The notes under the pieces were generated by a model. That model did not search any database. It worked only from the letters and a program-made list of their open reading frames with translations, and was not told the origin of the DNA. 47,627 nt of DNA from Hyphomicrobiales bacterium. Lineage in GTDB: Bacteria > Pseudomonadota > Alphaproteobacteria > Rhizobiales > Aestuariivirgaceae. Location of the stretch: positions 1 through 47,627 of the forward strand of contig JANXRO010000205.1 of assembly GCA_025356765.1 (NCBI GenBank), written 5' to 3'. The translations under genes and the position numbers were made by a program. How positions within the stretch are numbered: the first letter of the stretch is position 1; each line of letters starts with the position of its first letter. Positions 2,287-24,023 of this stretch are shown here, piece after piece.

Positions 2287-2997
2287 TTATGTGGTTTCCA
2301 CAATTTTCATTTCTACGAGGGCAATCAAGTGTTTTGGCACAATCTGCAGAAACTGAATGTTCCAACTCTCAGATTTATGCTGTGGGCGAAGAATTTTGTA
2401 TGACGTTGTTCCCGTGGCTTTCAAAACAAAGGTGTTCAAGCCGAAAATGATCCCTTTGCCGATGGCCTTTAAGCCAGCCTCTTTGCCTGTCCAATAATGC
2501 AAAAAGCCAGAATTTTGCTCTGCTTCTGGCAAACTTGCCAAAGCCTCTGCCTCTTCAGGTGTGAAATGTCGTTTGGCCAAGGCCACAATGTTTTCAACTT
2601 TGCGCAACCGTTCGATATCAATGCCAATGGCGTTTTGCCAACTGGCGCAAGCAATGGCGGTTGTGCCACTTGATGAGAATGACAAGTGGAGCCCCGGTGC
2701 ATCTGTACACGTGGGCTTTGTGTCGCGTTGATGGACCATAGCCAGATCGGACGGTGGAACGCTGGTGGATAACATATTGGCGAGAAAAAGCCGTTGGAAG
2801 CAGCGGCGCGCCACGAAATGGCGAAATTCGACGTGATCAGAAACCGAGGCAGCCTTTTCTTTTTCCTCAGCTGAAAGAAAATTCAGAAACTCAGCTTCTG
2901 ACAATGAGTCATCATCGGTAAAGGATGCAATATTTGGGCCTTCTTTAGACAGCGTATGCCAAATGATGTGTTGTTGTGGCAAAATATTACGATTCAT
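2287..2997 (-). CDS. Sfp-type 4'-phosphopantetheinyl transferase
   Basis: IGIDIE and WTGKEAGLKAIGKG motifs; start placed at ATG 2997 because the longer ORF would overlap dctP. Confidence 0.85.
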   Translation of the reverse strand: MNRNILPQQHIIWHTLSKEGPNIASFTDDDSLSEAEFLNFLSAEEKEKAASVSDHVEFRHFVARRCFQRLFLANMLSTSVPPSDLAMVHQRDTKPTCTDAPGLHLSFSSSGTTAIACASWQNAIGIDIERLRKVENIVALAKRHFTPEEAEALASLPEAEQNSGFLHYWTGKEAGLKAIGKGIIFGLNTFVLKATGTTSYKILRPQHKSESWNIQFLQIVPKHLIALVEMKIVETT

Positions 2998-3169
2998 AAA
3001 CCAAATAATTTGAATAAGCCTAGAAAGCCTAAATTTTGCGGCTTTGCAACCAAAAGCAAACCGCATTTTAACTGGTGACCCATTACAACACATAGCGAAA
3101 AGAAATCGTGCTTCGTATCGTTGGGAAATCCATCGTCGCAGCTTTGGGCCAGAGACAATAGGTAGTTTT

Positions 3170-4150
3170 ATGAAAAACATAGCTTCATCGATCCCCGCAT
3201 TCTTGCTTTTGGCACCACTGACGGGGGCCGCTTCTGCCGCTGAAATGTGGGATATGCCAACAGCTTATCCGGCCTCGAATTTTCAAACCATTAATGCTCA
3301 AGAATTCAGTGTCTGCGTCAGCAAAGGCACCAATGGTGATATTACCATTATGCTTCATCCCAACGGATCGCTGTTCAAAGGCAATGACATCAAGCGCGCT
3401 GTTCAAACAGGGCAGACACAAATTGGCGAACGATTGCTATCGTCCCATGAAAATGAAAATCCAGTATTTGGCACAGATTCCATTCCCTTCATTGCGACAA
3501 CTTATGAAGACTCTGTGAACCTATACAAAGCTGCGCGGCCAGAGCTTGATCGCGTTTTAGAAGGGCAGGGCCTGAAGCTGCTCTATTCCGTGCCTTGGCC
3601 GCCGAATGGAATGTTCTTCAAGAAGGACGTGCAATCTGTAAGTGACATGGCTGGCATTAAAGTGCGCGCTTATAACAAAGAAAGTGCTCGGATTGCGGCT
3701 TTAACGGGCATGACACCAGTGTCGCTGGAAGCTGCTGAAATTAGCCAAGGCATGGCTGCTGGTGTGATCAATTCATTGATGACATCATCTGTGACCGGCA
3801 AAGACAGTCGCGTGTGGGAACAGCTCAATCACTTTTATCAAGTGAAAGCTTGGATGCCCCGTAACTCTGTAATTATTAACAAGGCGGTATGGTCTGGCCT
3901 TTCTAAGGACAAGCAAGACGTTATTTTGAAATGCTCTGCTGATGCAGAAGCGGCCGGATTGGAAAAATCAAAGGCTGCTGATGCAGAGGCCATCGAAGCT
4001 TTGAAAAGCAATGGCATGCAGGTGTTAGCGCCTTCAGATAAACTTGCCAGTGAGCTGAGCAAAATTGGCCAGACGATTGCCAAGGAATGGGCAGTCAATG
4101 CTGGTGCCGCGGGCAGCTCTATTATGGCTGGCTATAAAAAGTCGAACTGA
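3170..4150 (+). CDS. dctP: TRAP transporter substrate-binding protein
   Basis: Signal peptide; WDMPTAYPASNFQT, LHPNGSLFKG and KVRAYN (conserved Arg) motifs; start at ATG 3170. Confidence 0.9.
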   Translation: MKNIASSIPAFLLLAPLTGAASAAEMWDMPTAYPASNFQTINAQEFSVCVSKGTNGDITIMLHPNGSLFKGNDIKRAVQTGQTQIGERLLSSHENENPVFGTDSIPFIATTYEDSVNLYKAARPELDRVLEGQGLKLLYSVPWPPNGMFFKKDVQSVSDMAGIKVRAYNKESARIAALTGMTPVSLEAAEISQGMAAGVINSLMTSSVTGKDSRVWEQLNHFYQVKAWMPRNSVIINKAVWSGLSKDKQDVILKCSADAEAAGLEKSKAADAEAIEALKSNGMQVLAPSDKLASELSKIGQTIAKEWAVNAGAAGSSIMAGYKKSN

Positions 4151-4192
4151 TAAATTTCTACGTATCAGTACTATCGAAAAATTTCTGGAAAA

Positions 4193-4756
4193 ATGATGTC
4201 AACCGTTGTGCCTCAAAATAATATCGAAAGCCAACGCTCTGGTTCTTCGACTTTGCATGGGCGCGTTTTGGATAAGGCTTATCTTTGGGCCGGCTATGCT
4301 GCGGCCAGTTGTATATGTCTTATTCTCGTTGTCACATTGACACAGATTGTAACGCGGTATCTTGGCATCGATCTGCGCGGCCTTTCAAGCTATGCGGGTT
4401 ATTTGATGGCAGCATCGACGTTTCTAGGCCTGGCCCACGCTTTAAGCCGCGGAGCGCATATTCGCATCGAGACAATTTCAAAGTTGTTTGGCGCTCGGCA
4501 AAAATACATTGATCTTTTTTCCTATGCGACAGGAGCCGTCATCGCAAGTTGGTTTGCTTATTATTGCTGCAACATGGTCTTCACAACATTCATATTGCAA
4601 GATGTCAGTACCGATCTGGATGCAACGCCATTGTGGATTCCGCAAGCAACAATGGCCTTTGGCACGGCACTTTTTGCCATCGCAATGCTTGATAATTTTC
4701 TGACTTTGTTGCTTACGGGCAAATATCGTTTTCAACCTAGTGTTCAATCGGTTTAG
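4193..4756 (+). CDS. dctQ: TRAP transporter small permease
   Basis: About 4 TM; LSRGAHIRIE and TPLWIPQ motifs. Confidence 0.9.
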   Translation: MMSTVVPQNNIESQRSGSSTLHGRVLDKAYLWAGYAAASCICLILVVTLTQIVTRYLGIDLRGLSSYAGYLMAASTFLGLAHALSRGAHIRIETISKLFGARQKYIDLFSYATGAVIASWFAYYCCNMVFTTFILQDVSTDLDATPLWIPQATMAFGTALFAIAMLDNFLTLLLTGKYRFQPSVQSV

Positions 4757-4771
4757 GCAGGAACGCTGGCT

Positions 4772-6082
4772 ATGGACCCCATCGTCACAATCACATTGCT
4801 GCTTGCACTGATGTTTGCATTGTTGGCGGCAGGAGTTTGGATTGCACCTGTCTTAATGGCAGTGGCGGCAATCGCCATTGATGTGATTGCCGGAAGGCCC
4901 GCTGGATTTTCAATTGCTACAACCGCATGGTCTGGCGCTTCATCATGGATGCTAACGGCACTTCCAATGTTTATTTGGATGGGCGATATTCTGTTTCAAT
5001 CGCGCCTTTCAGAGGATCTGTTTAAAGGATTATCGCCGTTGATGCGGCGCATTCCAGGGGGGCTGCTTCATACAAATGTTTTAGGGTGCACGCTTGTTGC
5101 AGCTGTTTCAGGCTCTTCGGTGGCTACGCTGACGACAGTTGGTAAAATGACAATTCCAGAATTGCGCAAACGGGGTTATCCCGAACATCTGATTGTAAGC
5201 ACATTGGCAGGGCCAGCGACATTGGGGCTTATGATCCCACCTTCGATTATTATGATTGTTTATGGCGCTTTAACAAACGAGTCCATTGCAGCCATAAACA
5301 TTGCTGGCATTTTACCAGGCCTTGTTTTGGCGGCCATGTTTTCAGGTTATGTGGCACTGGTATCGCTTTTTATGAAAAGTCAGATGCCAGCGCAGGAAGC
5401 GCGGGTGAGTTGGCGGCAGAAGTTGATTGGTGCGCGCGCCCTTATTCCAATTGTTGTTTTGCTCAGCTTGGTTATTGGAACGATGATGTTTGGCATTGCC
5501 ACGGCCACTGAAGCCGCTGCAGTGGGTGTTTTGGGTGCACTGATTTTGGCTTTTCTGCAAGGCACTTTGAATTCAAAAATGTTTGTCGATAGCTTGATGA
5601 GTGCAACACGAACTTCGGTGATGATCTCTCTCATCTTGGTGGCGGCTGGCTCTCTTTCCCTTGCTATGGGCTATCTGCGTTTGCCAGAAATGCTGGCCCA
5701 GTGGGTGGATGGCCTTCACCTTTCTGCCTTTTGGCTTTTGATGGGCCTGTTGGTTCTTTATACAATTCTGGGTCATTTTTTGGATGGCATTTCATGTGTC
5801 GCGCTGACCATTGCGATTGTGGAACCCATGGTGCGTCATGCTGGCATTGATATGGTTTGGTTTGGAATTTTCATGGTGCTCGTGGTTGAAATGGCGCAGA
5901 TCACGCCACCTGTCGGTTTTAACCTGACGGTGCTTCAGTCAATGACTGGCAATGACATGTTCAAAGTAGGTTGGTGGTCTATGCCGATGCATGGCGTGAT
6001 GTTGGTGATGGTGTTCATTCTCATCGCCTTCCCCGAACTTGCGATGTGGTTACCCCATCATATGATTCCTGTGCGGGCTTAA
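4772..6082 (+). CDS. dctM: TRAP transporter large permease
   Basis: ALPMFIWMG, AVSGSSVAT, LGLMIPPS and QITPPVGFNL motifs. Confidence 0.93.
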   Translation: MDPIVTITLLLALMFALLAAGVWIAPVLMAVAAIAIDVIAGRPAGFSIATTAWSGASSWMLTALPMFIWMGDILFQSRLSEDLFKGLSPLMRRIPGGLLHTNVLGCTLVAAVSGSSVATLTTVGKMTIPELRKRGYPEHLIVSTLAGPATLGLMIPPSIIMIVYGALTNESIAAINIAGILPGLVLAAMFSGYVALVSLFMKSQMPAQEARVSWRQKLIGARALIPIVVLLSLVIGTMMFGIATATEAAAVGVLGALILAFLQGTLNSKMFVDSLMSATRTSVMISLILVAAGSLSLAMGYLRLPEMLAQWVDGLHLSAFWLLMGLLVLYTILGHFLDGISCVALTIAIVEPMVRHAGIDMVWFGIFMVLVVEMAQITPPVGFNLTVLQSMTGNDMFKVGWWSMPMHGVMLVMVFILIAFPELAMWLPHHMIPVRA

Positions 6083-6169: not shown

Positions 6170-6637
6170 CTAGGCCGCAGAGCGCTGGCATTCTGGTGGC
6201 AATGAGACAATCTCCACCCAATAATGGCCAACCGTCTTTACGATGTCTACCAACTTGTCGAATGAAACCGGCTTACAGATAAACGAATTCACGCCGAGAT
6301 TATAAGTTTTGATAATATCTTCTTCGGCTTTGGATGTGGTGAGAATGATAATCGGAATTCGGTGAAGTTCCGGATCTGCTTTGATTTCTTTCAGAACAGT
6401 GCGGCCATCTTTGCGTGGCATGTTTAGATCAAGAAGGATGAAGCCCGGATAGGGTTGGCCCTTCAAATGTTCCCATTTTCCTTCACGCCGCAAATATTCG
6501 AGAAGCTGAACTCCATCTTCAACAAAATCAATTGGGTTATTCAGTTTCGATGCCTCAAATGCATCTTTAATCATCATCCGATCATCGGCATCGTCGTCTG
6601 CAACAGCAATGCGAACTGGAAAACTGCTACGTATCAT
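6170..6637 (-). CDS. Single-domain response regulator (Rcp1-like)
   Basis: ADDD acidic pocket, ILLDLNMPRKDG, ILTTS, LGVNSFICKP; 4-bp overlap with the kinase gene. Confidence 0.9.
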   Translation of the reverse strand: MIRSSFPVRIAVADDDADDRMMIKDAFEASKLNNPIDFVEDGVQLLEYLRREGKWEHLKGQPYPGFILLDLNMPRKDGRTVLKEIKADPELHRIPIIILTTSKAEEDIIKTYNLGVNSFICKPVSFDKLVDIVKTVGHYWVEIVSLPPECQRSAA

Positions 6638-8640
6638 GCTGGTGCACCTTTTCTATTTTGTTCAATGGGTAGGGTTACATAAAACTTTGCGCCAATATTA
6701 AGTTGGCCATCGGCGTTGATTGTTCCGCCATGTCGCTCAATAATTTTTCTTACAGTGGCAAGGCCAATGCCGGTGCCTTCATATTCAGTTCGGCTGTGTA
6801 AGCGCTGGAATATGGTGAAAATTTTGTCTTTGAACTCATTGTCAAAGCCAATGCCATTATCGGCAAAGACAATATTGGTGTGTGCGACTCCACTGACCGA
6901 ATCCTGGGCGGGCACAAATTCAGAGCTGATCGTAATAACGGGCAGCACATCTGCTTTGCGGAACTTCAATGCGTTGCCCAAAAGGTTTTGCAACAACTGA
7001 CGCATTTGCATCGGTTCGCATTCAATTGTTGGCAAATCGTCAAAGTTTATGGTGGCTTTTGTTTCTTCAATCCGGATTTGGAGATCTGAGAGAACTTCTC
7101 CAAGTACTTTACTCAGCGAAATTTTTTGAAAATCTTTCGCGCCAGTTGTCACACGTGAGTATGAAAGCAAATCATTGATCAGCGTGCGCATGCGGCCCGC
7201 GGCATTTTGCATGCGGTCTACAAACATCTTGCCGTCGTCTGGCAGGATTGAGGAATATTTGTTGACCAAGCGTTCGCCGAAAGCTTCGATTTTGCGCAAA
7301 GGTTCTTGCAAATCATGTGAAGCCACATAAGCAAAGTCTGCCAACTCGCGGTTTGAGTGTTCAAGCTTCTGGGTATATTGCAACATCGTAGCCGCATTGC
7401 GCTCTACTTCGGTGATGTCTTCATAGGTGGCGATTGTGCCGCCATCACTCATTGGTTCATTCATCACCGCGATTACACGGCCATCTTTCAGATATTGTTT
7501 GATAACGCTGCGGCGTGCGAGTTGGCTCGGGTCGTTGCGTTGGGCCAAAGCGCGATCAGCTTCTTCCGTTGTATAGTTCCCCAAGCTTACTGAGTATTGC
7601 ATAATTTCGCGAAGTGAGATGCCGGGCTTGACCACATCTGCCGAAAATCCATAAATTTCCAAATAGCGTTTGTTGACCACAATCAACTTTTGATCTTTGT
7701 CGAACATGCAAAGACCCTGCACCATGTTGCTCAACGCGGTGTCGAAATGCAAATTTCGCGCGTGAAGCTGTCGCGAAATGCGCAACATTTCAATTTCGCG
7801 CAATTTGATTTCCGTAATATCAGAGCGTGTTCCAACGATACCACCATCATTGGTGCGTTTTTCAGTGATAAGAAGCCAACGCCCGTCGGCCAGTTGAACC
7901 TGATAAGGTTCAACGGGATTGCGATGTTTGTCCAAGCGCCATTTCACGTATTGCTCTTGCGTCATTCCATTCAGAATAAACGCGCCGCGCGCGGTGGACT
8001 TGCGCAGAATTTCTTCTTTTTCAGCACCGGGCATAATAACATCGGCAGCCAGCGGGCTGTAGTCGAGATATTTGCGGTTATAGAGAACCATCCGATCGTT
8101 GGCGTCATATAATGCAAAACCATCTGCCATAACGTCAAGCGCATGCATCAAGCGCGAGCGGGATTGCTCTGCTATCATTTCATATTGGGTGTTGAGGTCA
8201 ATGCCTGTGGAAGCGCTGTCAATTTGGCGCGCTGTTTCTACGGCGGTTCCGTTGGGAAGTCTGCGGCGGCGAATTTCAACCATGCTGCCGCTTGGCGCTG
8301 TGTAACGGAAGGAATATGCTGTGCCCGGTTGCAGGCGTTCTATAATTCTATCGATTTTTCCAGTGACGTCTTCATCAGGAACATTCAGGCGTTGAAATGT
8401 GATCTGCATAAGCTTTTGCAGCTGGGTTCCTGTTGGCATATCTGAAGTTCGATAGCCGCAAAGTGATTTATAAAGATCGTTGCATGCCAACAGCCGCAAC
8501 TGAGAATCAAACAAGGCCAGTCCTACATCGGCACCTGCAAACAGATCATTTATTCCGGCACTGGCGTTTTCCGATGTCATTTCGGTAAGAACATTTTCTG
8601 CGCCTTTGAGAATTGGCGTCGCATTGCTATTGATTTTCAC
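6634..8640 (-). CDS. Soluble multi-PAS histidine kinase (Cph1-like HisKA/HATPase core)
   Basis: Three PAS-fold-like repeats (GLALFD, GFALYD, GLCMFD); FAYVASHDLQEPLRKI H-box; NLLGNALKF, DNGIGF and GTGIGL boxes; start uncertain. Confidence 0.9.
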   Translation of the reverse strand: MKINSNATPILKGAENVLTEMTSENASAGINDLFAGADVGLALFDSQLRLLACNDLYKSLCGYRTSDMPTGTQLQKLMQITFQRLNVPDEDVTGKIDRIIERLQPGTAYSFRYTAPSGSMVEIRRRRLPNGTAVETARQIDSASTGIDLNTQYEMIAEQSRSRLMHALDVMADGFALYDANDRMVLYNRKYLDYSPLAADVIMPGAEKEEILRKSTARGAFILNGMTQEQYVKWRLDKHRNPVEPYQVQLADGRWLLITEKRTNDGGIVGTRSDITEIKLREIEMLRISRQLHARNLHFDTALSNMVQGLCMFDKDQKLIVVNKRYLEIYGFSADVVKPGISLREIMQYSVSLGNYTTEEADRALAQRNDPSQLARRSVIKQYLKDGRVIAVMNEPMSDGGTIATYEDITEVERNAATMLQYTQKLEHSNRELADFAYVASHDLQEPLRKIEAFGERLVNKYSSILPDDGKMFVDRMQNAAGRMRTLINDLLSYSRVTTGAKDFQKISLSKVLGEVLSDLQIRIEETKATINFDDLPTIECEPMQMRQLLQNLLGNALKFRKADVLPVITISSEFVPAQDSVSGVAHTNIVFADNGIGFDNEFKDKIFTIFQRLHSRTEYEGTGIGLATVRKIIERHGGTINADGQLNIGAKFYVTLPIEQNRKGAPA

Positions 8641-8851: not shown

Positions 8852-9838
8852 ATGCTCTCGAGTTTAGAACGAACACTTGCTTGTTGGCTTTTGGCAGGTG
8901 CAATTTTGGCAGGATTTTTAGTGCCAGGATTGTCGGAGATTTTTGAACCCTATAAGCTTGAAAGCTTGTTCATTCTCATTGTTATGTCTTTGTTGCCCAT
9001 GGGCCGCATGGATGTCGACGCTGTATTTACCCTCGACTCAAAAGTTTGGAAAATTGTGTTGTGGCAATTGCTGGGATTGCCGGCATTGGTTGTTGCCGCC
9101 GCACATTTAGCGCGGATTGATATGACAATTACCAAGCTGATGGTGATCACGGCATCGGCTGGTTCACTTTTTGCTTCTCCTACCTTTGCTGAGCTGCTTC
9201 AGGTTAACAAACAAAGAGCGCTTCAATGTATGGTTTTATCGACATTCCTGATGCCACTTTCATACTTTGTATTTTTTACGCTCGTTCTTCATACGAAAGT
9301 AAATTTGGATTTCGCAGACTATGTTGATCGATGCCTGACCTTTTTGATCATGCCGCTGGGCTTGTTCTTGGTCTATATGGGTATCTCTACAAGTTTGCCG
9401 CGCAAAATTGCCGATACCATTGAAAGTGTTTCACGGCGTTCCACAATCATTGCACTTGTCATATTTGGCATTGGCGTTGTGGGCCCTGCGCGTGACCTTA
9501 TGCACACCGATTTTAATCACTTTTTGCTTTATCTGGTGATCGTGAATGCCTTGGGCATTGGCATGGCCTATCTGACTATTGTTGTGATGTTTCGCCAAGG
9601 CATCAACGATGCGATGACAGCAAGCATAGTTAGCGGTTTTCGCAACGTAGGTTTGGGCATGGTTTTGCTCACTGGAGTTTCAGGCGTTCACACCGCCCAA
9701 TATGTTGGCGTGTCGCAGATACCGATATTTTTGGCCCCATTGGCGTTGAGTTTGTTGATGCGCAAGCAACGCAACAGTTCATTTGCTCGTGTGAACCAAT
9801 CTCTCGACGAATTGGGTTCAAAACAAATTGCCGCTTAA
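8852..9838 (+). CDS. Membrane transporter, bile acid:sodium symporter/BART-like
   Basis: About 10 hydrophobic segments; GFRNVGL near the C-terminus resembles the ASBT-family GxxN motif. Confidence 0.55.
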   Translation: MLSSLERTLACWLLAGAILAGFLVPGLSEIFEPYKLESLFILIVMSLLPMGRMDVDAVFTLDSKVWKIVLWQLLGLPALVVAAAHLARIDMTITKLMVITASAGSLFASPTFAELLQVNKQRALQCMVLSTFLMPLSYFVFFTLVLHTKVNLDFADYVDRCLTFLIMPLGLFLVYMGISTSLPRKIADTIESVSRRSTIIALVIFGIGVVGPARDLMHTDFNHFLLYLVIVNALGIGMAYLTIVVMFRQGINDAMTASIVSGFRNVGLGMVLLTGVSGVHTAQYVGVSQIPIFLAPLALSLLMRKQRNSSFARVNQSLDELGSKQIAA

Positions 9839-9998: not shown

Positions 9999-11249
9999 GT
10001 GAGTTTGAGTTTAGACAGTGGTGCGAACGACGCAGATGAACTTGTGCGTGCATTGCGTTTTGCGTCAACTGCGGCAAAGCAGCTTCCCGCTGCTAAAGCG
10101 CTCGATGTTGTGGGTGCTGCACCTTTTGGCACGCAAGCTCAAAAATTGAAAAAAGCTGTCGGTCAAATTTTTTATGGTTTGGCATTTGGCGCAGCGTTTG
10201 TGGCAAGCATGGCTGGCATTTATTATGGCAACCAAGTCTATGGGCCAGAGATGTATGGCCAAAATGGAATGGCACCCGCCGCTGAAGCCCATGCAGCCAA
10301 CAAGAATTATGCAGTTTTCGACCTAAATTTAAATGTTCGTGCACTGCGTGAAGAACAACTGAAACGTATGACGAAGACGCCGGAACTTATCATTCTTGGC
10401 GCCAGCCAATGGCAAGAGGGCCACAAAGAATTATTGAAGGGCATGGACGTTTATAATGCTCATATTCATCGCGATTATTGGGAAGATCCACTTGGCATGG
10501 TGGAGCTTCTTGTGCGTTACAATAAGCTTCCCAAAAAGCTTATAATTGCTATTCGCGATAAGCAGTTTACGCCAGTGGATGCGCGTAAAGACTGGCTTTG
10601 GGAGCCAGGCATTCCGGCATACCGGGCCATGACACAGCGTCTTGGAATTGAAACTGAAAGTTATTGGAAGACAGCGCCCTACCATCGTTTGCAAGCACTC
10701 ATTTCGTTGCCAATGCTATTTGAGAATTTTACACGCTGGTATAATGCCGCTGAACACCCCGGGCCAACCACCGCCACACAATTGGAAAATATGGATTTGA
10801 TCATGCCTGATGGCTCGATCGAATGGTCGAAATTCAAAAGAAATAATGTGTTCACGCCACAACGCACAGCGAATGAAGTTGATGCTTTGGTGAAAGCAAA
10901 TTTAAGCAGCCCCTTGTTGATTGATCCTCAAGGTGTTGCTGCCTACGAAGCGCTGTTTACATTTTTAAAAAAACAAGGCGTTCAGGTCTATCTCACCAAC
11001 CCGCCCTACAATCCGGCTTTCTATGATAGAATTGTGGGAACATCATATGCCGAAGGTGTTGGTCGTGTTGAAGCCCTGACACAAAAGTTTTCAACTGAAT
11101 ATGGATTTCCTATTTTCGGAAATTTCAACCCGCACAAAGTGGGCTGCACATCAGACATGTATATCGACGCAGAACATTCAAGCCCACAATGTTTGCAGAA
11201 GGTGTTTGACCAGTTCCTGGCTCTTGATGGCGTGAGAAAGTCAAGCTGA
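9999..11249 (+). CDS. Membrane-anchored SGNH-like acyltransferase (DltD/AlgJ-like)
   Basis: Single N-terminal TM; IILGASQ (GxS nucleophile), NPPYNP and YIDAEH (DxxH); TGATG coupling to MBOAT; start uncertain. Confidence 0.7.
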   Translation: MSLSLDSGANDADELVRALRFASTAAKQLPAAKALDVVGAAPFGTQAQKLKKAVGQIFYGLAFGAAFVASMAGIYYGNQVYGPEMYGQNGMAPAAEAHAANKNYAVFDLNLNVRALREEQLKRMTKTPELIILGASQWQEGHKELLKGMDVYNAHIHRDYWEDPLGMVELLVRYNKLPKKLIIAIRDKQFTPVDARKDWLWEPGIPAYRAMTQRLGIETESYWKTAPYHRLQALISLPMLFENFTRWYNAAEHPGPTTATQLENMDLIMPDGSIEWSKFKRNNVFTPQRTANEVDALVKANLSSPLLIDPQGVAAYEALFTFLKKQGVQVYLTNPPYNPAFYDRIVGTSYAEGVGRVEALTQKFSTEYGFPIFGNFNPHKVGCTSDMYIDAEHSSPQCLQKVFDQFLALDGVRKSS

Positions 11250-12760
11250 TGTCATTTACTTCATTGCAATTCATTTTTGGATTCGTGCCTGTGGCTTATA
11301 TCGGCTTTGTTCTTGCCCACCGTTTTGGTGGCCCAAAGCAAGCGATCAATTTGTTGGCAACCATTTCATTGGTTTTTTACGCAATGTGGGGCTTGCCTTT
11401 GTTGGCAATCTTGTTGTTGTCCATGATTTTCAATTTTACAATGGGCAACGTGATTGCGAATTTAAGCAGCAATCCAAAGATGGCGAAAAACCTTCTCGCC
11501 GGCGGCGTTATCGCTAATTTAGGCATGCTTGGTTATTTGAAATATAGTAACTTCTTCATTGATGTGGCCAACCAGTTCTCTGGCGGCGGCATTGACCATC
11601 TAAGTATTGTTGCTCCGCTCGGCGTATCATTCTTTACCTTCGTACAGATTGGCTTTTTGATCGATGCGTCAAATGGAAAATTGATGCCGCACAACTTTTC
11701 GCGTTACATTGTTTTCTCGGCATTTTTCCCTTGTGTCACCGCAGGACCGCTGGTGATGCAACGTGAAATGATGGATCAGTTGAGTGATCCGAAATTTCCG
11801 GCCTTGGACATGCGCCGCGTGTTTATCGGCATCACCATGTTTGCCATGGGGCTTTGCAAAAAAGTTCTGCTTGCCGACAGCATTGCACCTTTTGCTGATA
11901 GTGTTTTTGGCGGCGCACAACATGGTTTGGCGATTGATGCTGGCACATCTTGGATTGGTGCTCTGAGCTATACGCTGCAATTGTATTTTGATTTCTCTGG
12001 CTATTCAGACATGGCCATTGGTTTGGGCACAATTTTTGGAATTAAACTTCCACTCAATTTTGACTCGCCACTTAAATCGACAAATATTTCCGAATTTTGG
12101 CGTCGTTGGCATATGACGATGACACGTTTTTTCACCGCATATATTTATTCAGGACTAGCAATGCACGGTATGCGCAGCGGAATGCGCTGGAAGCTCAATC
12201 GATTTGGCCGCTTTTTTCTTGCAGCCGCAGCGCCCTCTATTCTGACGTTCCTGTTTGCAGGAATTTGGCACGGCGCGGGTTGGACGTTCGTTATCTATGG
12301 CCTGATGCATGGCCTTGCCATTGCAATATTTTTGGCTTGGCGTGAATTTTCCGGAATTAAACTTCCGTCGCCTTTGGCGTGGTTGACTACAACTGTTACC
12401 GTGGTTTGTGGTTTGGTGATGTTTCGATCGTCTGACGTGCCGACGGCATTAAAAATGTTTGGCAACATGACTGCCTTGGGCAGTTCGGCCAGCACAGGCC
12501 CAGCACTGACAATTGATAGCGCGCAGGCATTGTCGATGATTGTGGTGATGGGTGCAATAGCGCTGTTGTTGCCAAACACACAACAATTTTTACACCGCGA
12601 ATGGCCAGTGATTGATTCGATGCCAGAGGAGACACCTTTGGCTGCCGGCCTTCTTGCATGGACACCAAAATTAAGTTCCGCACTTTTGACCGCTTTGGTT
12701 TTGACTGCGGGAATTGCTTCAATCGGATCCAGTTCGGGGTTCCTCTATTACAAATTCTAA
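11249..12760 (+). CDS. MBOAT O-acyltransferase (AlgI/DltB/PatA family)
   Basis: PLGVSFFTF, QLYFDFSGYSDMAIG, EFWRRWHMT, GIWHGAGW (catalytic His); C-terminal FLYYKF. Confidence 0.93.
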   Translation: MSFTSLQFIFGFVPVAYIGFVLAHRFGGPKQAINLLATISLVFYAMWGLPLLAILLLSMIFNFTMGNVIANLSSNPKMAKNLLAGGVIANLGMLGYLKYSNFFIDVANQFSGGGIDHLSIVAPLGVSFFTFVQIGFLIDASNGKLMPHNFSRYIVFSAFFPCVTAGPLVMQREMMDQLSDPKFPALDMRRVFIGITMFAMGLCKKVLLADSIAPFADSVFGGAQHGLAIDAGTSWIGALSYTLQLYFDFSGYSDMAIGLGTIFGIKLPLNFDSPLKSTNISEFWRRWHMTMTRFFTAYIYSGLAMHGMRSGMRWKLNRFGRFFLAAAAPSILTFLFAGIWHGAGWTFVIYGLMHGLAIAIFLAWREFSGIKLPSPLAWLTTTVTVVCGLVMFRSSDVPTALKMFGNMTALGSSASTGPALTIDSAQALSMIVVMGAIALLLPNTQQFLHREWPVIDSMPEETPLAAGLLAWTPKLSSALLTALVLTAGIASIGSSSGFLYYKF

Positions 12761-12775
12761 AAGGGAGAAAAAAAT

Positions 12776-13987
12776 ATGAACACCTATAACCATAATTTCA
12801 GCGAGTTCGTTTTGGATTTGCCACGCGAAGTAGACCGCGAAGTGGCCGGCGACATTGAAAAAGAGTCAGTTTTTGTTTCTCCTTTTATTGAGAGAATTCA
12901 TGTGAGCGAAGATGGCAAAACAGCTCGTGTTGTTGTGCGCCCTGGTGCTGATCTTGATGAAACTAAAGAAAAAACTGAACGTTTCCTGGCTGTGATGGTT
13001 CGCCAGATTACAGGTTTTGAAATTAAGGTTTTCGTTGAAACAAAACGTAAAGATACTGGGCCATATCAGATTGGCGTAAACGACGAACTCGTTAAGCGCG
13101 GCTGGATGCACGATTATGGCAAAGGCCAGGTGGCCTATAGTGGCCCCGTGTTAAAATTGGCCAAGTTGATCAATGACAAAGCTGGCGAACTTTATAAAGA
13201 TGCATTTGCTGCCAAGGAATCGCATTTTCCGGCAATGATTGATGCAGATACGCTGCACAAATGTGGCTATTTCGACTCCCACCCGAATGCCGTGACTTTT
13301 GTTGGCAATGTGATTGAAGACTTTGATGCCATCGAAGAGTTTCGCCGTGCCAATTCTTGCTCTGAAGGCGCATTAATGCCGCAGCAAGATCACATTCACA
13401 TCGACGGAATGTGTCTCAATCCGGCTGCGTGTTTTCCGTGCTATCCAACGTTGACCGGCCAATCTTTTGATGAAGGCCAATGTTTCACTTGGCTGGGCCG
13501 CGTGTTCCGTTACGAATCACGCAACATCAATGGCCTTGATCGCCTTTATGAATTCAACGTGCGTGAATTGGTGTTTGTGGGCGACGAGGATTATGTGCGC
13601 AGCGTGCGTGCCAAGGCTTTGCCGGTTGTTGAACAACTTGCTGCATTCATGGATATTGATTGCCAAGTGCAAACTGCAACGGACCCATTTTTCGCCACGG
13701 TTTCTGCTGCCAAAAAGTTTTGGCAGGCCTCGCAGGAAGTGAAAAATGAAATCAAGATTCCGGCCTTGGGCAATGATGGAAGTGTCAAGCAGCTCGCTTG
13801 TGGCTCGATCAACCTCCACGGCAATTTCTTTGGCAAGCGTTTTGGCTTCACATGCAAGAACGGCGAGCCGGCCCAAACAGGCTGCGTGGGCTTGGGCATT
13901 GAACGCTGGGTACTTGCCGCATTTACACAACACGGTTTTGATGAAAGTCGCTGGCCTGAAGCCGTGCGCAACATAATTTTTGCTTAA
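12776..13987 (+). CDS. Amino acid:[carrier protein] ligase-like protein, homolog of methanogen-type zinc-dependent SerRS
   Basis: Class II motif 2 (VFRYES..RLYEFNVRELVFVG), motif 3 (GCVGLGIERW), PAACFPCYP and ATDPFF; GGGAGA RBS; ACP gene directly downstream. Confidence 0.85.
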   Translation: MNTYNHNFSEFVLDLPREVDREVAGDIEKESVFVSPFIERIHVSEDGKTARVVVRPGADLDETKEKTERFLAVMVRQITGFEIKVFVETKRKDTGPYQIGVNDELVKRGWMHDYGKGQVAYSGPVLKLAKLINDKAGELYKDAFAAKESHFPAMIDADTLHKCGYFDSHPNAVTFVGNVIEDFDAIEEFRRANSCSEGALMPQQDHIHIDGMCLNPAACFPCYPTLTGQSFDEGQCFTWLGRVFRYESRNINGLDRLYEFNVRELVFVGDEDYVRSVRAKALPVVEQLAAFMDIDCQVQTATDPFFATVSAAKKFWQASQEVKNEIKIPALGNDGSVKQLACGSINLHGNFFGKRFGFTCKNGEPAQTGCVGLGIERWVLAAFTQHGFDESRWPEAVRNIIFA

Positions 13988-14015
13988 AAATTTTTGATTT
14001 AACAGGAGAGAAAAA

Positions 14016-14279
14016 ATGCAACTTTATAACCTTGTCGGAAAAGTTCTTGATGTTGAGCCTTCACTGCTCAACGATGAATCAAATGCGCAAAACACGCCAA
14101 AATGGGATTCACTGCGCCACATTGAAGTGCTTTTCGCAATTGAAAATGCATTCCATGTGCGCTTCACAATGCCTGAAATTTCTGGCCTTCGGAAGCTTGG
14201 CGACATTCGCAAACTTTTAGCAACGAAGAACGTGATTCTGAACGCTGAAGTTCCAGAAGAAACACGAAAATTCGCTTAA
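14016..14279 (+). CDS. Acyl/aminoacyl carrier protein
   Basis: 87 aa; WDSLRHIEVLFAIENAF phosphopantetheine-attachment motif; AGGAGA RBS. Confidence 0.9.
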   Translation: MQLYNLVGKVLDVEPSLLNDESNAQNTPKWDSLRHIEVLFAIENAFHVRFTMPEISGLRKLGDIRKLLATKNVILNAEVPEETRKFA

Positions 14280-14312: not shown

Positions 14313-16409
14313 ATGCATGGTCACATGAACACAGGTTCTACCATAAAAGTTTTAATCGTCGATGATGATGAGGATGATCTCTATCTCATCACAGACGCTT
14401 TGAAACAGGTTGTGAACAACCGTTACGACATTACAACAGCGTCATCAGCGCTGTTGGCAATGCGGGAATTGTCGCTGAACTCTTTCGATGTCATTTTCAG
14501 CGACTATCGGTTGGGTGCAGTGACGGGCATCGACTTCATCAATGGTGTTCGTAGCGCTGGTATTGATACGCCGATAATCTTGCTGACGGGTATTTCGGAT
14601 CAGTTGGTTGACAACGCTGCATTGAAGGCTGGTTCATCAGATTTCATTTCGAAAACGTCGCTCAATCCTGATGTTTTGGATCGGTCGGTGCGATATTCTT
14701 TGGCCCATGGCAATCGCCAGCGGTTGTTGCAGAGTATTCTGAAAAATACTAAATCTGCCATTGCTGTGATGAACCAAGACGGTTCTGAAAGCTTAGCCAA
14801 TCGACAAATGTCACAATTTGCTCAACTCGCTTTTGGTGATGTTGCTGATAGCAAGCGCAAGCTGATTGAAATTGCGTTTGCCTCAGAGAAACAGGATATA
14901 TTTTTGGGTGAAATGGTGTTGGAGCGCCATGTTACAAAGCTTGCTGATGGAAGTTCCATTCTTACGCTGCATGATGTGACAGACCGGGTAAATGATTTGC
15001 GCGCGCGCGAGCAGGCGGAGGAACGCATTCGCGCAATTGCGGTGAGAGATACATTGACGAACTTGCCCAACCGCATGGCATTTAACAGTGTGATGGACGA
15101 TTGCTTGCAACACGCAAGGGAGAACGGAACCAAACTGGCGGTTTTGTTGTTTGATTTTAACCGATTTAAAGAGGTGAATGATCTTTTTGGCCACGCTGCA
15201 GGCGACCATATTCTTATTCAAGGTGCCAGTCATTTGCGTTCGACATTGGGAGAAGGCGAATTTTGTGCACGCCTTGGTGGCGACGAATTTGTTCTGATTA
15301 AGCAAAATGCTGAACACGATAGCGCATTGGATTTGGCACAACGCATCTCAACAAGCTTGGCCATGACCGTACAATGGGAAGACAAGGTTATTGAAACCAG
15401 CGTAACTGTTGGTGTGGCGCTTTATCCCCAGCACGGCAAGAACCGCCAAGAGTTGCTGGGCAATGCAGATCTTGCGATGTATCGCGGCAAATCTGAAATT
15501 GACCGTTCTATATGCGTGTTTGATGCCAGCATGGATCAACTTATTCGCTATCGCCGTGCGCTGGGGCATGATTTGCGTCATGCTATTCAAGACGATCAAT
15601 TGAGCTTGGCCCTGCAACCGCAATTTATTACTGCATCAGGGCAATTAGCAGGATTTGAAGCTCTGTTACGCTGGCACAGCCCAACCCGTGGCCCTGTTTC
15701 TGCCGCTGAGTTTATTCCAATTGCTGAAGAAAACGGTTTGATCATTGAAATTGATCGATGGGTGTTGCGGCGCGGCTGCAAACTTTTATCTGTCTATGAT
15801 TGGTTGCCGCGCATGGCGGTGAATGTATCAGCAAGAGCAATTTGTCAGCCAACGATTGTGGCTGATATTCGCGCCGCGTTGGTCGATCATGGCATTTCAC
15901 CCAAACGGCTTGAGTTGGAAATTACAGAAACTGCGCTTATTCTAGATTTGAATCGCGCCCTTCATAATTTGCGACAAATTAAAGCACTCGGCATTTCTAT
16001 TGCCATGGATGATTTTGGAATTGGCTATTCATCTTTGTCGTTGCTGAATTCATTCCCGTTTGATCGGATTAAGGTCGACGGATCGTTTATCCAACTTACA
16101 GGCTCTAACGATCGTTCAGACGCAATCTTCAAAGCTGTTGTTGGATTGGGCACTGCTCTCAGCGTTCCAGTTTTAGCTGAAGGTGTTGAGACTGCTTTAC
16201 AGCACCAATTTGCGAAGGCTTCGGGCTGTGATGAACTGCAGGGGTATCATTTTGGACGGCCTGTGCAAGAAGTTCAAATTGCAAAGATGCACGCCGATTT
16301 GGACGGCCAGTTATCGCTTGAGAATATAAAAGCTTGGCAACAGCGGTTGAAATTAACACAATCCACAACTGCACAAAAAGCACCAATGGCGGTTGGACAA
16401 CACGCCTAA
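14313..16409 (+). CDS. REC-GGDEF-EAL c-di-GMP signalling protein
   Basis: IVDDDEDD..DYRLG receiver; RLGGDEF; FEALLRW; DDFGIGYSS; EGVET; start may be ATG 14325. Confidence 0.92.
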   Translation: MHGHMNTGSTIKVLIVDDDEDDLYLITDALKQVVNNRYDITTASSALLAMRELSLNSFDVIFSDYRLGAVTGIDFINGVRSAGIDTPIILLTGISDQLVDNAALKAGSSDFISKTSLNPDVLDRSVRYSLAHGNRQRLLQSILKNTKSAIAVMNQDGSESLANRQMSQFAQLAFGDVADSKRKLIEIAFASEKQDIFLGEMVLERHVTKLADGSSILTLHDVTDRVNDLRAREQAEERIRAIAVRDTLTNLPNRMAFNSVMDDCLQHARENGTKLAVLLFDFNRFKEVNDLFGHAAGDHILIQGASHLRSTLGEGEFCARLGGDEFVLIKQNAEHDSALDLAQRISTSLAMTVQWEDKVIETSVTVGVALYPQHGKNRQELLGNADLAMYRGKSEIDRSICVFDASMDQLIRYRRALGHDLRHAIQDDQLSLALQPQFITASGQLAGFEALLRWHSPTRGPVSAAEFIPIAEENGLIIEIDRWVLRRGCKLLSVYDWLPRMAVNVSARAICQPTIVADIRAALVDHGISPKRLELEITETALILDLNRALHNLRQIKALGISIAMDDFGIGYSSLSLLNSFPFDRIKVDGSFIQLTGSNDRSDAIFKAVVGLGTALSVPVLAEGVETALQHQFAKASGCDELQGYHFGRPVQEVQIAKMHADLDGQLSLENIKAWQQRLKLTQSTTAQKAPMAVGQHA

Positions 16410-17749
16410 TCAGCTTTTTTTGGCAGATTCATCAACACGTCTTCGCGCAATTTTGAAACGGCATTGGCATGCCCGTCGAAGCCTTCATAGGTTGCTAAAA
16501 CATGGGCTTGCTTTGCAAGATCTGGATAACCCTTGCTGGTGACATAGGCAATTGAAGTGCGTTTCATAAAATCAAAAACAGAAATGGCCGACGATGTTTT
16601 TGCCCAGCCACTTGTTGGCAAGCAATGATTGGGACCGATCACATAATTGCCCAGCGTGCTTGGTGTATGTTCGCCCAAAAGAATTTCACCGGCATGTTCA
16701 AGCCTGCCTAAATATTGGAAGGGCTCTTTTGACAAAACTTCCAAATGTTCTGGGGCATATTCATTGCAAAATGCAATTGCGTCGGCTTCATCGCGGGCCA
16801 AAACGATGCCGCCCATCGAGCCAGACAAAACTGTGCTTGAATAACCCACGCGCAATGCGCTCATGTGCTTCCAATATTCGGGAATTGCAGCCAAGGCTTC
16901 TTCTGCAACGTGTCTGTTCCATGTCACAAGATAGGCTGAACTATCAGGGCCATGTTCGGCTTCTACGAGAAGATCAAGAGCCGCGAGTTTTCCGCTTACG
17001 CTATCGTCGGCCAAGATGATCACTTCACTTGGCCCCGCGGGTGTGCCTGTATCTATGATATGCGAAAGCAAACGCTTGGCGGCACCCACCCAAGGGCTTC
17101 CAGGGCCCACCACTTTGGTGGCCTTGGAGATTGTCTGCGTGCCATATGCAACAGCCGCAATGCCTTGTGCGCCGCCGGCTTTATAAACCTTGCTTACACC
17201 AGCCATGCGGGCTGCCACCAATGTGGCATCATCAATCTGCCCGTTGGGGCCGGGCGGGGTTATGATACAAATATCTTTCACACCAGCTACTTGTGCTGGA
17301 ATTGTGAGCATCAGTGCAGCCGACGGAAACGCGCCCTTGCCACGCGGAACATAACACGCAACCGAGGGAATGGGTGAAGCACGATCGCCACCGAATGCGC
17401 CGGGCCTGATTTCATGCAGCCACATTTTTTCCGGCATTTGTTCTTGATGGAACTTACGGATTGATCCTGCTGCAAATTCCAACGCTTCACGCACTTCTGG
17501 AGCAAGAGTTTTTTCTGCGGCGGCAAAATCTGCCTCGGTGGCTGCAATGTTGCCAGACTCTACGGGGGCCTTGTCAAATTCTCTTGCAAATCGTGCCAAG
17601 GCTTCATCACCTTCGACGCGCACGGCCTCTATAATGGGATTAACTTTGGCTTCAAACGAGGAAAGATCTGTTTCCGTGCGCTGCTGCAATTTAGTGCGCT
17701 CGGCAACAGAAAGATTGGCCAATTGATGAAAGTTGATCAAGGGGGTCAC
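16406..17749 (-). CDS. Histidinol dehydrogenase homolog (non-canonical Zn ligands)
   Basis: GGAQGIAAVAYGT, VGPGS, PAGPSE, APEHL; EAEH and LGNY in place of QAEH and GDY; GTG start with AGGA RBS. Confidence 0.85.
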   Translation of the reverse strand: MTPLINFHQLANLSVAERTKLQQRTETDLSSFEAKVNPIIEAVRVEGDEALARFAREFDKAPVESGNIAATEADFAAAEKTLAPEVREALEFAAGSIRKFHQEQMPEKMWLHEIRPGAFGGDRASPIPSVACYVPRGKGAFPSAALMLTIPAQVAGVKDICIITPPGPNGQIDDATLVAARMAGVSKVYKAGGAQGIAAVAYGTQTISKATKVVGPGSPWVGAAKRLLSHIIDTGTPAGPSEVIILADDSVSGKLAALDLLVEAEHGPDSSAYLVTWNRHVAEEALAAIPEYWKHMSALRVGYSSTVLSGSMGGIVLARDEADAIAFCNEYAPEHLEVLSKEPFQYLGRLEHAGEILLGEHTPSTLGNYVIGPNHCLPTSGWAKTSSAISVFDFMKRTSIAYVTSKGYPDLAKQAHVLATYEGFDGHANAVSKLREDVLMNLPKKAD

Positions 17750-17815
17750 TGCGGTTTCCTGTCTTTTGGAAGATGAGCACCTAGCCGCATCGGACAGGTT
17801 TTTCAATGTCGCTTG

Positions 17816-19711: not shown

Positions 19712-19718
19712 GTGCGTG

Positions 19719-22759
<3,041 letters not shown>

Positions 22760-22760
22760 G

Positions 22761-24023
22761 TCAGACCAATTGATCAATCATCGGCTGGGTGATTAAACAA
22801 ATGCCTTTTTCGCTGCGGCGGAAACGTTTGGCATCCAACACAGGGTCTTGGCCCACGATCAGCCCTTCAGGAATTTGCACACTTGAATCGATGATTACTT
22901 TTGTCAGGCTGGCATTGCGGCCAATTTCAACATTGGGCAAAATGACAGCATCTTCCAAACTGGAAAATGAATTCACTCTGACATTGGTGAAAAGCAAAGC
23001 CCGTTTGATCGACGCGCCTGAAACAATGCAGCCACCAGAAACCAATGACGCGATGGCACTGCCGCGACGGCCTTCAAGATCGTGGACGAATTTTGCTGGT
23101 GGTGTCACTTCGCCATACGTCCAGATTGGCCAATCACGATCATAAAGATCCAATGCGGGCAACGTATCCGTCAAATCAATATTGGCTTCCCAATAGGCGT
23201 CAATGGTTCCGGCATCACGCCAATAGGCATGCTTTTCCAAAGGCGAGCGCACGCAAGATTTCGAGAACCGATGCGCCACAGCTTTGCCGCTTTTTACAAC
23301 ATAGGGAATGATGTCTTTGCCAAAGTCGCGCGATGAATTTGGGTCTGCCGCATCACGGCGTAGCAAGCCGGCCAAAAATTTCGTTTCAAAAACATAAATA
23401 CCCATGGAAGCCAATGCTATGTCTGGGTTGCCGGGAATGGCTGGTGGATCTTTGGGTTTTTCCACAAATGCCGTAATGACGTCGTGTTCATCGACGGCTA
23501 AAACACCAAAGCCTGTGGCTTCCATGCGCGGAACTTCCAGCACACCGATTGTTACATCGGCTGCAGAATCCACATGCTGTTGCAACATTGGTTCATAGTC
23601 TTGCTTATAAATGTGATCGCCAGCAAGGATGACGATATATTTAACATTATAAGTCTCGATGATATCTAGGTTTTGATAAACCGCATCTGCGGTTCCAGCA
23701 TACCATTGATCTTCAGAAACGCGTTGGCTTGCGGGGAGAATATCAAAACTTTCATTACGCTCTGTGCGAAAGAAGTTCCAACCGCGCGTCAAATGGCGAA
23801 TTAAACTGTGGGCCTTATATTGAGTAGCAACACCGATGCGCCGAATGCCTGAGTTCATCGCATTGGAAAGTGCAAAATCAATAATGCGCGATTTGCCACC
23901 AAAAGGCACGGCTGGTTTTGCACGTCTGTCGGTTAATTCCATCAGGCGGCTTCCCCGGCCTCCGGCCAAAACATAAGCCATTGTATCTCTGGCCAGTGGG
24001 CCTGACTTTTTTTGTTCACTCAT
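22761..24023 (-). CDS. glgC: Glucose-1-phosphate adenylyltransferase
   Basis: [31 protein letters not shown]. Confidence 0.97.

What the first reader, a model, noticed from the sequence alone, without database searches (positions are those of the whole stretch)
9999..14279. Dlt-like envelope aminoacylation operon driven by a SerRS-paralog amino acid:carrier-protein ligase instead of DltA
Seen: four tightly packed co-oriented genes (TGATG overlap, then 15- and 28-bp gaps). They encode a TM-anchored GxS/DxxH protein, an MBOAT with catalytic His and terminal FLYYKF, a class II aaRS-like protein with Cys/Glu/Cys zinc-site motifs, and a DSL-motif ACP. Established: the Dlt pathway uses an adenylation enzyme (DltA), carrier (DltC), MBOAT (DltB), Tyr motif (DltX) and SGNH-like transferase (DltD). 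Separately, homologs of methanogen-type SerRS in Bradyrhizobium and Agrobacterium load Gly/Ala/Ser on carrier proteins, and their downstream pathway is unclear. Inference: this operon joins the two. The ligase would load a small (L- or achiral) amino acid on the ACP, and the MBOAT/SGNH pair would move it across the inner membrane onto a periplasmic or surface polymer (LPS, EPS, glucan or peptidoglycan). I know of no characterised system with this architecture but could not search.
Basis: partly seen in the sequence, partly recalled or inferred. Interest (0 to 1): 0.92.

Follow-up and report, generated by a model that had tools for sequence, protein, structure and literature searches.

The report
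Serine-loading Dlt-like envelope acylation cassette
Four tightly linked genes, conserved in many mostly uncultured Alphaproteobacteria, encode a seryl-tRNA-synthetase relative, a carrier protein and a membrane acyltransferase pair that likely pass an amino acid, probably L-serine, across the inner membrane onto a still unidentified cell-envelope molecule, which would give this branch of orphan synthetase-like enzymes a physiological job.

Summary
Observation confirmed. The genes encode a DltD-fold SGNH protein, an MBOAT ending FLYYKF, a zinc-site SerRS-like ligase and a carrier protein (ACP). In 151 related loci, those with enough flank carry the ACP in 144 of 147, the MBOAT in 128 of 132 and the SGNH gene in 112 of 114. 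A normal serS lies elsewhere.

New here: serine is the likely cargo. Four related genomes keep SGNH, MBOAT and ACP but lack the ligase; beside the module they carry a stand-alone adenylation protein with EntF's serine code. Three other genomes carry a second serA next to the cassette.

Against: nothing is shown biochemically, the acceptor is unknown, one lineage keeps ligase and ACP without the MBOAT, and one ligase-bearing genome also has the adenylation protein. The ligase keeps a remnant of the tRNA-binding domain, so it is a sister of the Bll0957 type, not a member.

No paper describing it was found. This scan reported the same operon twice before on other DNA. New variant of a known kind; interest 0.72.

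The parts
9999..11249 (+). Membrane-anchored SGNH-fold transferase, DltD-like; predicted triad S136/D390/H393; invariant C383 and C398 (likely a periplasmic disulfide)
   Evidence: Invariant columns in 47 sequences. AlphaFold2 model, mean pLDDT 87.7. Foldseek top 10 rows are all DltD chains, best E 1.9e-5, TM about 0.4. VIA-align: DltD Z 12.9, rmsd 4.4, 255 residues aligned, tied with other SGNH proteins (best Z 14.0, 172 aligned). Weak DUF1574 hit below cut-off.
11249..12760 (+). MBOAT with catalytic-type His341 and the C-terminal acyl-shuttle motif F498-L-Y500-Y-K-F503
   Evidence: Pfam MBOAT; DltB model 173 bits, cut-off 375; invariant columns; Tyr at motif position 3 in 126 of 127 complete C-termini; motif defined as FXYXXF in PMC12148441 (passages).
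12776..13987 (+). Amino acid:carrier-protein ligase of a roughly 400-residue subfamily: SerRS-like core, zinc triad C219/E264/C370, G372, carrier-recognition helix 307-323, and a 95-residue remnant of the SerRS N-terminal domain
   Evidence: The helix aligns with the stretch that differs between Bll0957 and the engineered 4h2w enzyme. P0126 is an ACP-ligase fusion at 47% identity.
14016..14279 (+). Carrier protein (ACP) with predicted phosphopantetheine site Ser32
   Evidence: Weak ACP hits below cut-off; S32 invariant in 43 sequences; present in 80 of 80 genome loci.
8852..9838 (+). Bile acid:sodium symporter-like membrane protein; fused to the SGNH protein in some relatives
   Evidence: Atlas hits at 0.96 to SBF clusters; about 8 hydrophobic helices; in 46 of 51 long genome loci; fusions in L057-L059, L202, L216-L219, L250-L253.
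6634..8640 (-). Cytoplasmic histidine kinase with three PAS_7 domains
   Evidence: Pfam; no hydrophobic helix; 51 of 51 long genome loci; 28 of 30 SGNH-bearing family genomes and 1 of the 120 others.
6170..6637 (-). Single-domain response regulator
   Evidence: Pfam; 50 of 51 long genome loci.
14313..16409 (+). REC-GGDEF-EAL output protein, 33 bp after the ACP; the output part is a kinase in other lineages
   Evidence: Pfam; GGDEF and EAL-type motifs present; REC-kinase versions in L041 and L062.
2287..3180 (-). Sfp/HetI-type phosphopantetheinyl transferase (true start probably near 2997); loosely linked candidate activator of the ACP
   Evidence: close homologues in L220, L223, L233; other PPTases directly behind the ACP in L057 and L133.
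3044..6082 (+). TRAP transporter DctP-DctQ-DctM; loosely linked
   Evidence: Pfam; a DctM match in 50 of 178 loci, on either side of the cassette.

Best explanation
The cassette is likely a Dlt-like relay that would move an amino acid, probably L-serine, from the cytoplasm onto an unidentified extracytoplasmic envelope molecule. Inferred steps: (1) a PPTase primes Ser32 of the ACP; (2) the ligase binds the amino acid at its zinc site, adenylates it with ATP and forms a thioester on the ACP (about 0.9); (3) the ACP docks on the MBOAT, and His341 passes the group to Tyr500 of the MBOAT's own periplasmic tail; (4) Ser136 of the SGNH protein takes it over and esterifies a hydroxyl of the acceptor (steps 3 and 4 about 0.8). 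Serine as cargo is about 0.7. The acceptor is most likely a general envelope glycan or glycolipid (lipopolysaccharide, exopolysaccharide or peptidoglycan), which would gain a free amino group. The linked kinase, regulator and c-di-GMP enzyme likely couple this to a surface or biofilm state. Shown: the genes, motifs, folds, linkage, the ligase-less variant and the extra serA copies. Not shown: any chemistry.
For: Linkage (loci counted if the flank was long enough or the gene was seen): genome loci ACP 80 of 80, MBOAT 74 of 76, SGNH 71 of 72; metagenome loci 64 of 67, 54 of 56, 41 of 42; with ligases under 62% identity, MBOAT 25 of 26 and SGNH 20 of 20. All catalytic residues invariant. ACP-ligase fusion P0126. 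Loader replacement: G790, G816, G837, G849 keep SGNH, MBOAT and ACP in tandem, have no ligase match (0 of 4; 99% complete), and are the only 4 of 150 family genomes with an 84-100% orthologue of a stand-alone adenylation protein, which lies beside the module. Its pocket residues are identical to EntF's at the code positions, and PMC3795760 gives that code as serine (passage). serA lies by the cassette in 5 of 178 loci; in 3 of the 4 such genomes checked it is a second copy; serC-serA follow the ACP directly in L058 and L187. G372 matches the Gly of SerRS, not the Ala of the Bll0957 glycine ligase. MBOAT-ACP prediction: weak support, 0.46 against best control 0.00; that mark was reached by 116 of 157 solved and 2 of 215 mismatched pairs, but at 0.60 or under by only 18 solved pairs and both mismatches; runs agree in at least 95% of contacts, partner pLDDT at least 77; it may reflect likeness to DltB-DltC.
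Against: No biochemical data. No polymer genes are conserved beside the cassette. One clade (L039, L043, L186) keeps kinase, regulator, ligase, ACP and GGDEF-EAL but has lost the symporter, SGNH and MBOAT genes; its dN/dS of 0.16-0.23 largely overlaps that of 14 MBOAT-linked pairs of similar dS (median 0.11, maximum 0.195), so the ligase looks still constrained or the loss is recent. G1170 has both the ligase and a 58% orthologue of the adenylation protein on another contig, and the four ligase-less genomes are one genus, so the replacement is one event. G956 has a ligase with its core deleted and no such orthologue, yet a second serA. The ligase has Val262 where M. barkeri SerRS has Arg353 (its role in binding the serine hydroxyl is recalled). 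In a distant clade of these ligases only 2 of 15 regions hold an MBOAT.
Confidence: 0.6

Rival explanations
1. Same relay, but the cargo is alanine, glycine or another small amino acid.
For: Characterised aa:CP ligases load Gly or Ala (PMC5370406 passage); Val262 replaces the SerRS arginine; the pocket residues H169, N215, F220 and V262 are particular to this clade.
Against: Serine-code adenylation protein in the ligase-less variant; second serA copies beside the cassette.
Confidence: 0.17
2. The relay makes or tags a small periplasmic or diffusible molecule that is taken up by the symporter-like protein or the TRAP system and read by the PAS kinase, so the whole locus is a signalling circuit.
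For: Kinase in 51 of 51 long genome loci and 28 of 30 cassette genomes, in several gene orders and with exchangeable outputs; symporter-SGNH fusions; no polymer genes nearby.
Against: The most distant cassettes lack the kinase in the fetched flank (L134, L136, L144, L174). Described MBOAT-SGNH pairs acylate envelope polymers (PMC12148441 passages).
Confidence: 0.12
3. Ligase and ACP act in the cytoplasm, for example reporting amino-acid supply to the kinase, while the MBOAT-SGNH pair uses acyl-CoA like PatAB.
For: The L039/L043/L186 clade keeps ligase and ACP without MBOAT or SGNH; PMC12148441 states that other MBOAT-SGNH pathways lack a carrier protein.
Against: Where the ligase is lost, the ACP stays directly behind the MBOAT (L216-L219); in L136 the ACP sits between SGNH and MBOAT; distant cassettes keep all four genes without the kinase.
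Confidence: 0.07
4. The ligase is a second, atypical seryl-tRNA synthetase or uses tRNA as acceptor.
For: Residues about 37-100 align with M. kandleri SerRS 124-190; Foldseek ranks methanogen SerRS first; Atlas lead to tRNA_bind_4 at 0.76 (lead only); many relatives are annotated seryl-tRNA synthetase.
Against: Canonical serS present; gene found in only 26 of 150 family genomes; the N-terminal domain is short and mildly acidic (mean net charge -2.7 in 127 sequences); the carrier-recognition helix is of the aa:CP type; ACP fusion.
Confidence: 0.03

Closest known systems
DltXABCD D-alanylation of teichoic acids (also dlt genes of Dickeya and Pectobacterium)
   Same: Carrier-protein thioester donor, MBOAT with catalytic His, FXYXXF tyrosine shuttle, membrane-anchored DltD-fold transferase (PMC12148441 passages).
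   Different: Loader is a class II synthetase paralogue, not DltA; the shuttle motif is fused to the MBOAT, with no DltX; cargo is probably L-serine; no TagF-type gene in this genome; linked signalling and symporter genes.
PatA/PatB, AlgI/AlgJ and WssH/WssI MBOAT-SGNH acetyltransferases
   Same: MBOAT with its own C-terminal tyrosine motif, paired with an anchored SGNH protein.
   Different: PatA uses acetyl-CoA and these pathways have no carrier protein; here a ligase and ACP are in the operon, and the SGNH model is closer in extent to DltD (255 aligned) than to PatB (172 aligned).
Amino acid:carrier-protein ligases Bll0957 and Atu2573 (PRK07080)
   Same: SerRS-like core, Cys/Glu/Cys zinc site, carrier-recognition helix, carrier gene in the operon.
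   Different: About 400 against about 310 residues; keeps a remnant N-terminal domain; about 26% identity in the structural match; different pocket; different neighbours. Their role is called unknown in PMC9437257 section 12.
Methanogen-type seryl-tRNA synthetase
   Same: Fold, zinc site, Gly after the third zinc ligand, part of the N-terminal domain and linker.
   Different: About 120 residues shorter at the N-terminus; lacks Arg353; has an aa:CP-type helix; far below the family cut-offs.

Membership tests
aa:CP ligase (Bll0957 type, PRK07080) | SerRS-like class II core with Cys/Glu/Cys zinc site | tested here: met
   C219, E264, C370 align with the Bll0957 and SerRS ligands and are invariant
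aa:CP ligase (Bll0957 type, PRK07080) | Carrier protein encoded in the same operon | tested here: met
   80 of 80 genome loci; fusion P0126
aa:CP ligase (Bll0957 type, PRK07080) | Carrier-recognition helix in place of the SerRS loop | tested here: met
   Residues 307-323 align without gaps to the stretch exchanged in 4h2w; Q317, K323, E325 conserved
aa:CP ligase (Bll0957 type, PRK07080) | tRNA-binding domain lost | tested here: not met
   A 95-residue folded domain remains and aligns in part with M. kandleri SerRS 124-190
aa:CP ligase (Bll0957 type, PRK07080) | NCBIfam cut-off of 357 bits | tested here: not met
   159.8 bits
aa:CP ligase (Bll0957 type, PRK07080) | Loads an amino acid on phosphopantetheine and does not charge tRNA | not testable with these tools
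   Needs an assay
Methanogen-type SerRS | Full N-terminal tRNA-binding domain, about 510-520 residues overall | tested here: not met
   403 residues; 146 bits against 611 and 115 against 490
Methanogen-type SerRS | Arg353 in motif 2 | tested here: not met
   Val262 in 126 of 128 MBOAT-linked ligases, two gaps; numbering derived from the printed alignment, role recalled
Dlt pathway | DltA-type adenylation enzyme | tested here: not met
   None in the cassette; an adenylation protein appears only in the ligase-less variant
Dlt pathway | DltB orthologue | tested here: not met
   173 bits against 375; longer protein with its own tail motif
Dlt pathway | Separate DltX microprotein bearing FXYXXF | tested here: not met
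   Motif is at the MBOAT C-terminus in 127 complete sequences
Dlt pathway | Membrane-anchored DltD-fold transferase with Ser/Asp/His | tested here: met
   by fold, not by sequence (one search found no significant match)
Dlt pathway | D-alanine transferred to teichoic acid | not testable with these tools
   No TagF-family gene found in this 90% complete genome; cargo evidence points to serine
MBOAT-SGNH acyl-tyrosine relay (PatAB type) | MBOAT His plus C-terminal FXYXXF, paired with an SGNH gene | tested here: met
MBOAT-SGNH acyl-tyrosine relay (PatAB type) | Acyl-CoA donor, no carrier protein | tested here: inconclusive
   A carrier gene is always present and the MBOAT-ACP prediction gave weak support; the donor was not assayed

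The most novel reading that the evidence does not exclude
Gram-negative bacteria have an undescribed pathway that esterifies L-serine onto the cell envelope, fed interchangeably by a tRNA-synthetase paralogue or an NRPS serine adenylation protein, supplied by a dedicated serA and wired to a c-di-GMP or kinase circuit that senses or controls the modification. The ligase would also be an evolutionary intermediate between methanogen SerRS and the short aa:CP ligases.
Probability: 0.4. Interest if true: 0.85.

Novelty: new variant of a known kind. Interest (0 to 1): 0.72.

Why it matters
[quoted passage not shown] This cassette would give one branch of those ligases a pathway, add a second carrier-fed aminoacyl relay, and predict a specific new envelope modification (seryl ester) that can be tested with four purified proteins. 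It would also show two unrelated adenylating folds feeding the same carrier.

Tried and rejected
Relaxed selection after MBOAT loss: suggested, not upheld by the dS-matched control. Cyclic beta-1,2-glucan as acceptor: a synthase-like gene is in this genome but in 0 of 5 other cassette genomes. MdoG-type glucan: 1 of 5. Teichoic-acid-like polymer: no TagF family match here. Glycogen genes next door (17816-28674): not conserved neighbours. Sequence search of the SGNH protein against solved structures: nothing significant. Pfam tRNA_bind_4 was not matched by any of 17 ligases. Promoter and terminator scan: no excess over shuffles (16 against 11.7, 12 against 11.2). Expression: no RNA holder listed. 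MBOAT and SGNH searches in the two MBOAT-less genomes found nothing, but these assemblies are only 2.0 and 2.6 Mb. The primary aa:CP ligase paper and the Dlt mechanism paper were not held. A words search of earlier scan notes for the serine and replacement idea returned nothing. PMC11279074 had no hits for my terms.


Full report
Observation. The four ORFs, the overlap and the gaps are as described. GC content is level with the rest of the window. The closest ligases (95-97%) come from assemblies named Aestuariivirga sp. or Hyphomicrobiales. The genome is 90% complete and has a canonical serS above the family cut-off; the four proteins have no second copy.

SGNH protein (9999-11249). It has one hydrophobic helix at 57-75. 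In 47 sequences G134-A135-S136, D390, H393, C383 and C398 are invariant. Sequence searches of solved structures found nothing. The AlphaFold2 model (pLDDT 87.7) has DltD chains in all top 10 Foldseek rows (best E 1.9e-5). VIA-align places it in the SGNH fold; DltD is tied in Z (12.9, rmsd 4.4) but aligns over the most residues (255).

MBOAT (11249-12760). Pfam MBOAT, well below the DltB cut-off. H341 and F498, Y500, Y501 are invariant in 46 sequences. Of 127 complete C-termini, 126 have Tyr at position 3 of the hexapeptide. PMC12148441 (passages) shows this tyrosine is acylated in PatA and passes the group to the SGNH serine.

Ligase (12776-13987). Best solved relatives are Bll0957 and methanogen SerRS. 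The zinc triad is invariant. The helix 307-323 aligns without gaps to the stretch that differs between Bll0957 and the engineered enzyme 4h2w, which was crystallised with a foreign carrier protein; SerRS differs there. Unlike Bll0957 it keeps about 95 N-terminal residues that align in part with M. kandleri SerRS and are mildly acidic. This type is widespread (277 representatives at E up to 1e-30) and includes an ACP fusion (P0126) and fusions to GNAT and BtrH-like domains. The MBOAT-linked clade has its own pocket: H169 in 128 of 128 and V262 in 126 of 128, against F and M in 15 distant long ligases and mostly in 11 short ones.

Linkage. I fetched 80 genome loci (best 80 of 89) and 71 metagenome loci; they form 116 clusters at 95% ligase identity. 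Counting loci with enough flank or with the gene seen: ACP 80 of 80 and 64 of 67, MBOAT 74 of 76 and 54 of 56, SGNH 71 of 72 and 41 of 42 (profiles were built from the genome loci). In 150 family genomes the full-length ligase occurs in 26, all of which have the SGNH gene; 4 more have the SGNH gene only; 5 have just a short ligase. The SGNH gene was found in 8 of 300 order genomes and strongly in 2 of 400 class genomes. In a distant clade from the phylum sample, 10 of 15 regions had an ACP match and 2 of 15 an MBOAT with an FIYFQF tail. The cassette is thus accessory and patchy.

Among genome loci with 6.5 kb on both sides, the PAS kinase is in 51 of 51, the regulator in 50, a REC-output protein in 49 and the symporter-like gene in 46; among metagenome loci the counts are 11, 12, 10 and 9 of 18 (two of the kinase misses are genes cut by the locus edge). 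Gene order and output domain vary. The symporter is fused to the SGNH protein in several lineages. The kinase is in 28 of 30 SGNH-bearing family genomes and in 1 of the other 120. A PPTase lies at 2287-3180, and other PPTases directly follow the ACP in L057 and L133.

Why serine. First, four genomes of one genus keep symporter-SGNH, MBOAT and ACP in tandem with no ligase anywhere. Beside the signalling genes each has a 734-residue stand-alone adenylation protein without carrier domain, found at 84-100% identity in only these 4 of 150 genomes. Its pocket matches EntF at the code positions, and PMC3795760 (passage) gives that code as serine. Second, serA lies within the fetched flank in 5 of 178 loci, in L058 and L187 as serC-serA directly after the ACP and in L064 as a different serA type directly after it. 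In three of four genomes checked it is an additional copy; in L058's genome it is the only one found. Third, G372 is the SerRS residue, not the Ala of the glycine ligase (that this position governs specificity is recalled, not read).

Results against. The replacement is a single event, and G1170 holds both the ligase and a 58% orthologue of the adenylation protein, the latter beside glycosyltransferase and sugar-modifying genes at a contig end. G956 has an in-frame deletion of ligase residues about 117-351 and no such orthologue; this may be decay or misassembly. One clade of three loci lacks symporter, SGNH and MBOAT yet keeps an intact ligase and ACP, with dN/dS not clearly above matched pairs. 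Val262 replaces Arg353 of M. barkeri SerRS. The MBOAT-ACP prediction gave only weak support: 0.46 against best control 0.00, a range reached by 18 of 157 solved pairs and by both passing mismatches of 215, with run agreement of at least 95% and partner pLDDT of at least 77; it may reflect DltB-DltC. No acceptor was identified: neither glucan system is general and no TagF family gene was found.

Mechanism. Most likely the ligase loads serine on the holo-ACP, the MBOAT moves it to Tyr500 on the periplasmic face, and the SGNH protein esterifies an envelope hydroxyl. Like dlt and patAB the cassette stands apart from polymer genes, which suits a general acceptor (inference). Dlt genes of Dickeya are reported to confer peptide resistance, probably through lipopolysaccharide (PMC5541007 passage), so that is one candidate. 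All chemical steps are inferred. I give the whole account 0.6.

Literature and novelty. Full-text searches (listings and abstract starts seen) returned no paper joining an aa:CP ligase to an MBOAT or describing seryl transfer by an MBOAT. The library holds open-licence papers only. The primary aa:CP ligase paper and the 2023 Dlt mechanism paper, whose genome survey and supplements might list such clusters, could not be read. The one supplement of PMC12148441 had no hit for tRNA, carrier or ligase. I saw passages of PMC12148441, PMC5370406, PMC8892547, PMC3795760 and PMC5541007, and passages plus section 12 of PMC9437257. Earlier notes of this scan describe the same operon in two other genomes and carrier-fed MBOAT-SGNH modules with other loaders; these are unchecked AI notes and I do not count them as support.

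Verdict. Real, conserved and probably functional. It works like Dlt but is not a member of it, and the ligase works like an aa:CP ligase but fails two membership features of the Bll0957 type. New variant of a known kind; interest 0.72.

Noticed in passing
L216-L219 (G790, G816, G837, G849): Cassette without the ligase; a stand-alone adenylation protein with the serine code and a decayed condensation-like N-terminus lies beside the signalling genes.
   Followed up: yes
L039, L043, L186: One clade has lost the symporter, SGNH and MBOAT genes but keeps kinase, regulator, ligase, ACP and REC-GGDEF-EAL.
   Followed up: partly
L250:6304-6801: Ligase with an in-frame deletion of most of the catalytic core; the rest of the cassette is intact and a second serA lies nearby. 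Decay or misassembly.
   Followed up: partly
L136:3952-8200: Order SGNH, ACP, MBOAT, ATP-grasp protein, ligase: the ATP-grasp enzyme might extend or modify the cargo.
   Followed up: no
L113-L127: A distant clade of long ligases with ACP, often next to an unannotated protein of about 370 residues or a GNAT; two regions have an MBOAT and an SGNH-like gene in other orders.
   Followed up: partly
P0126, P0167, P0176, P0132: Ligase fusions to an ACP, a BtrH-like domain and a GNAT; a 43% relative is from Leptospira ellisii (context not seen).
   Followed up: no
L265:1-14102 (G1170): The serine-code adenylation orthologue sits beside glycosyltransferase, sugar epimerase, GNAT and methyltransferase genes, a possible hint at a polysaccharide acceptor.
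   Followed up: partly
L235:7952-10692 (G771): A distant SGNH gene with an MBOAT ending FLYFEF, next to acyl-CoA dehydrogenase-like genes; no ligase or ACP match in the region.
   Followed up: no
window 32308-36731: A 1260-residue RTX-repeat protein (23 repeat stretches) converging on a BTLCP (LapG-like) protease gene.
   Followed up: no
window 16406-17806: A histidinol dehydrogenase-family gene converging on the REC-GGDEF-EAL gene, outside any his operon; perhaps a paralogue with another substrate.
   Followed up: no
window 39732-41398: A sulfotransferase-domain gene overlapping a class IV aminotransferase gene.
   Followed up: no
window 17816-28674: A block of six large - strand genes that looks like the glycogen operon; only the first was checked by Pfam.
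   Followed up: no
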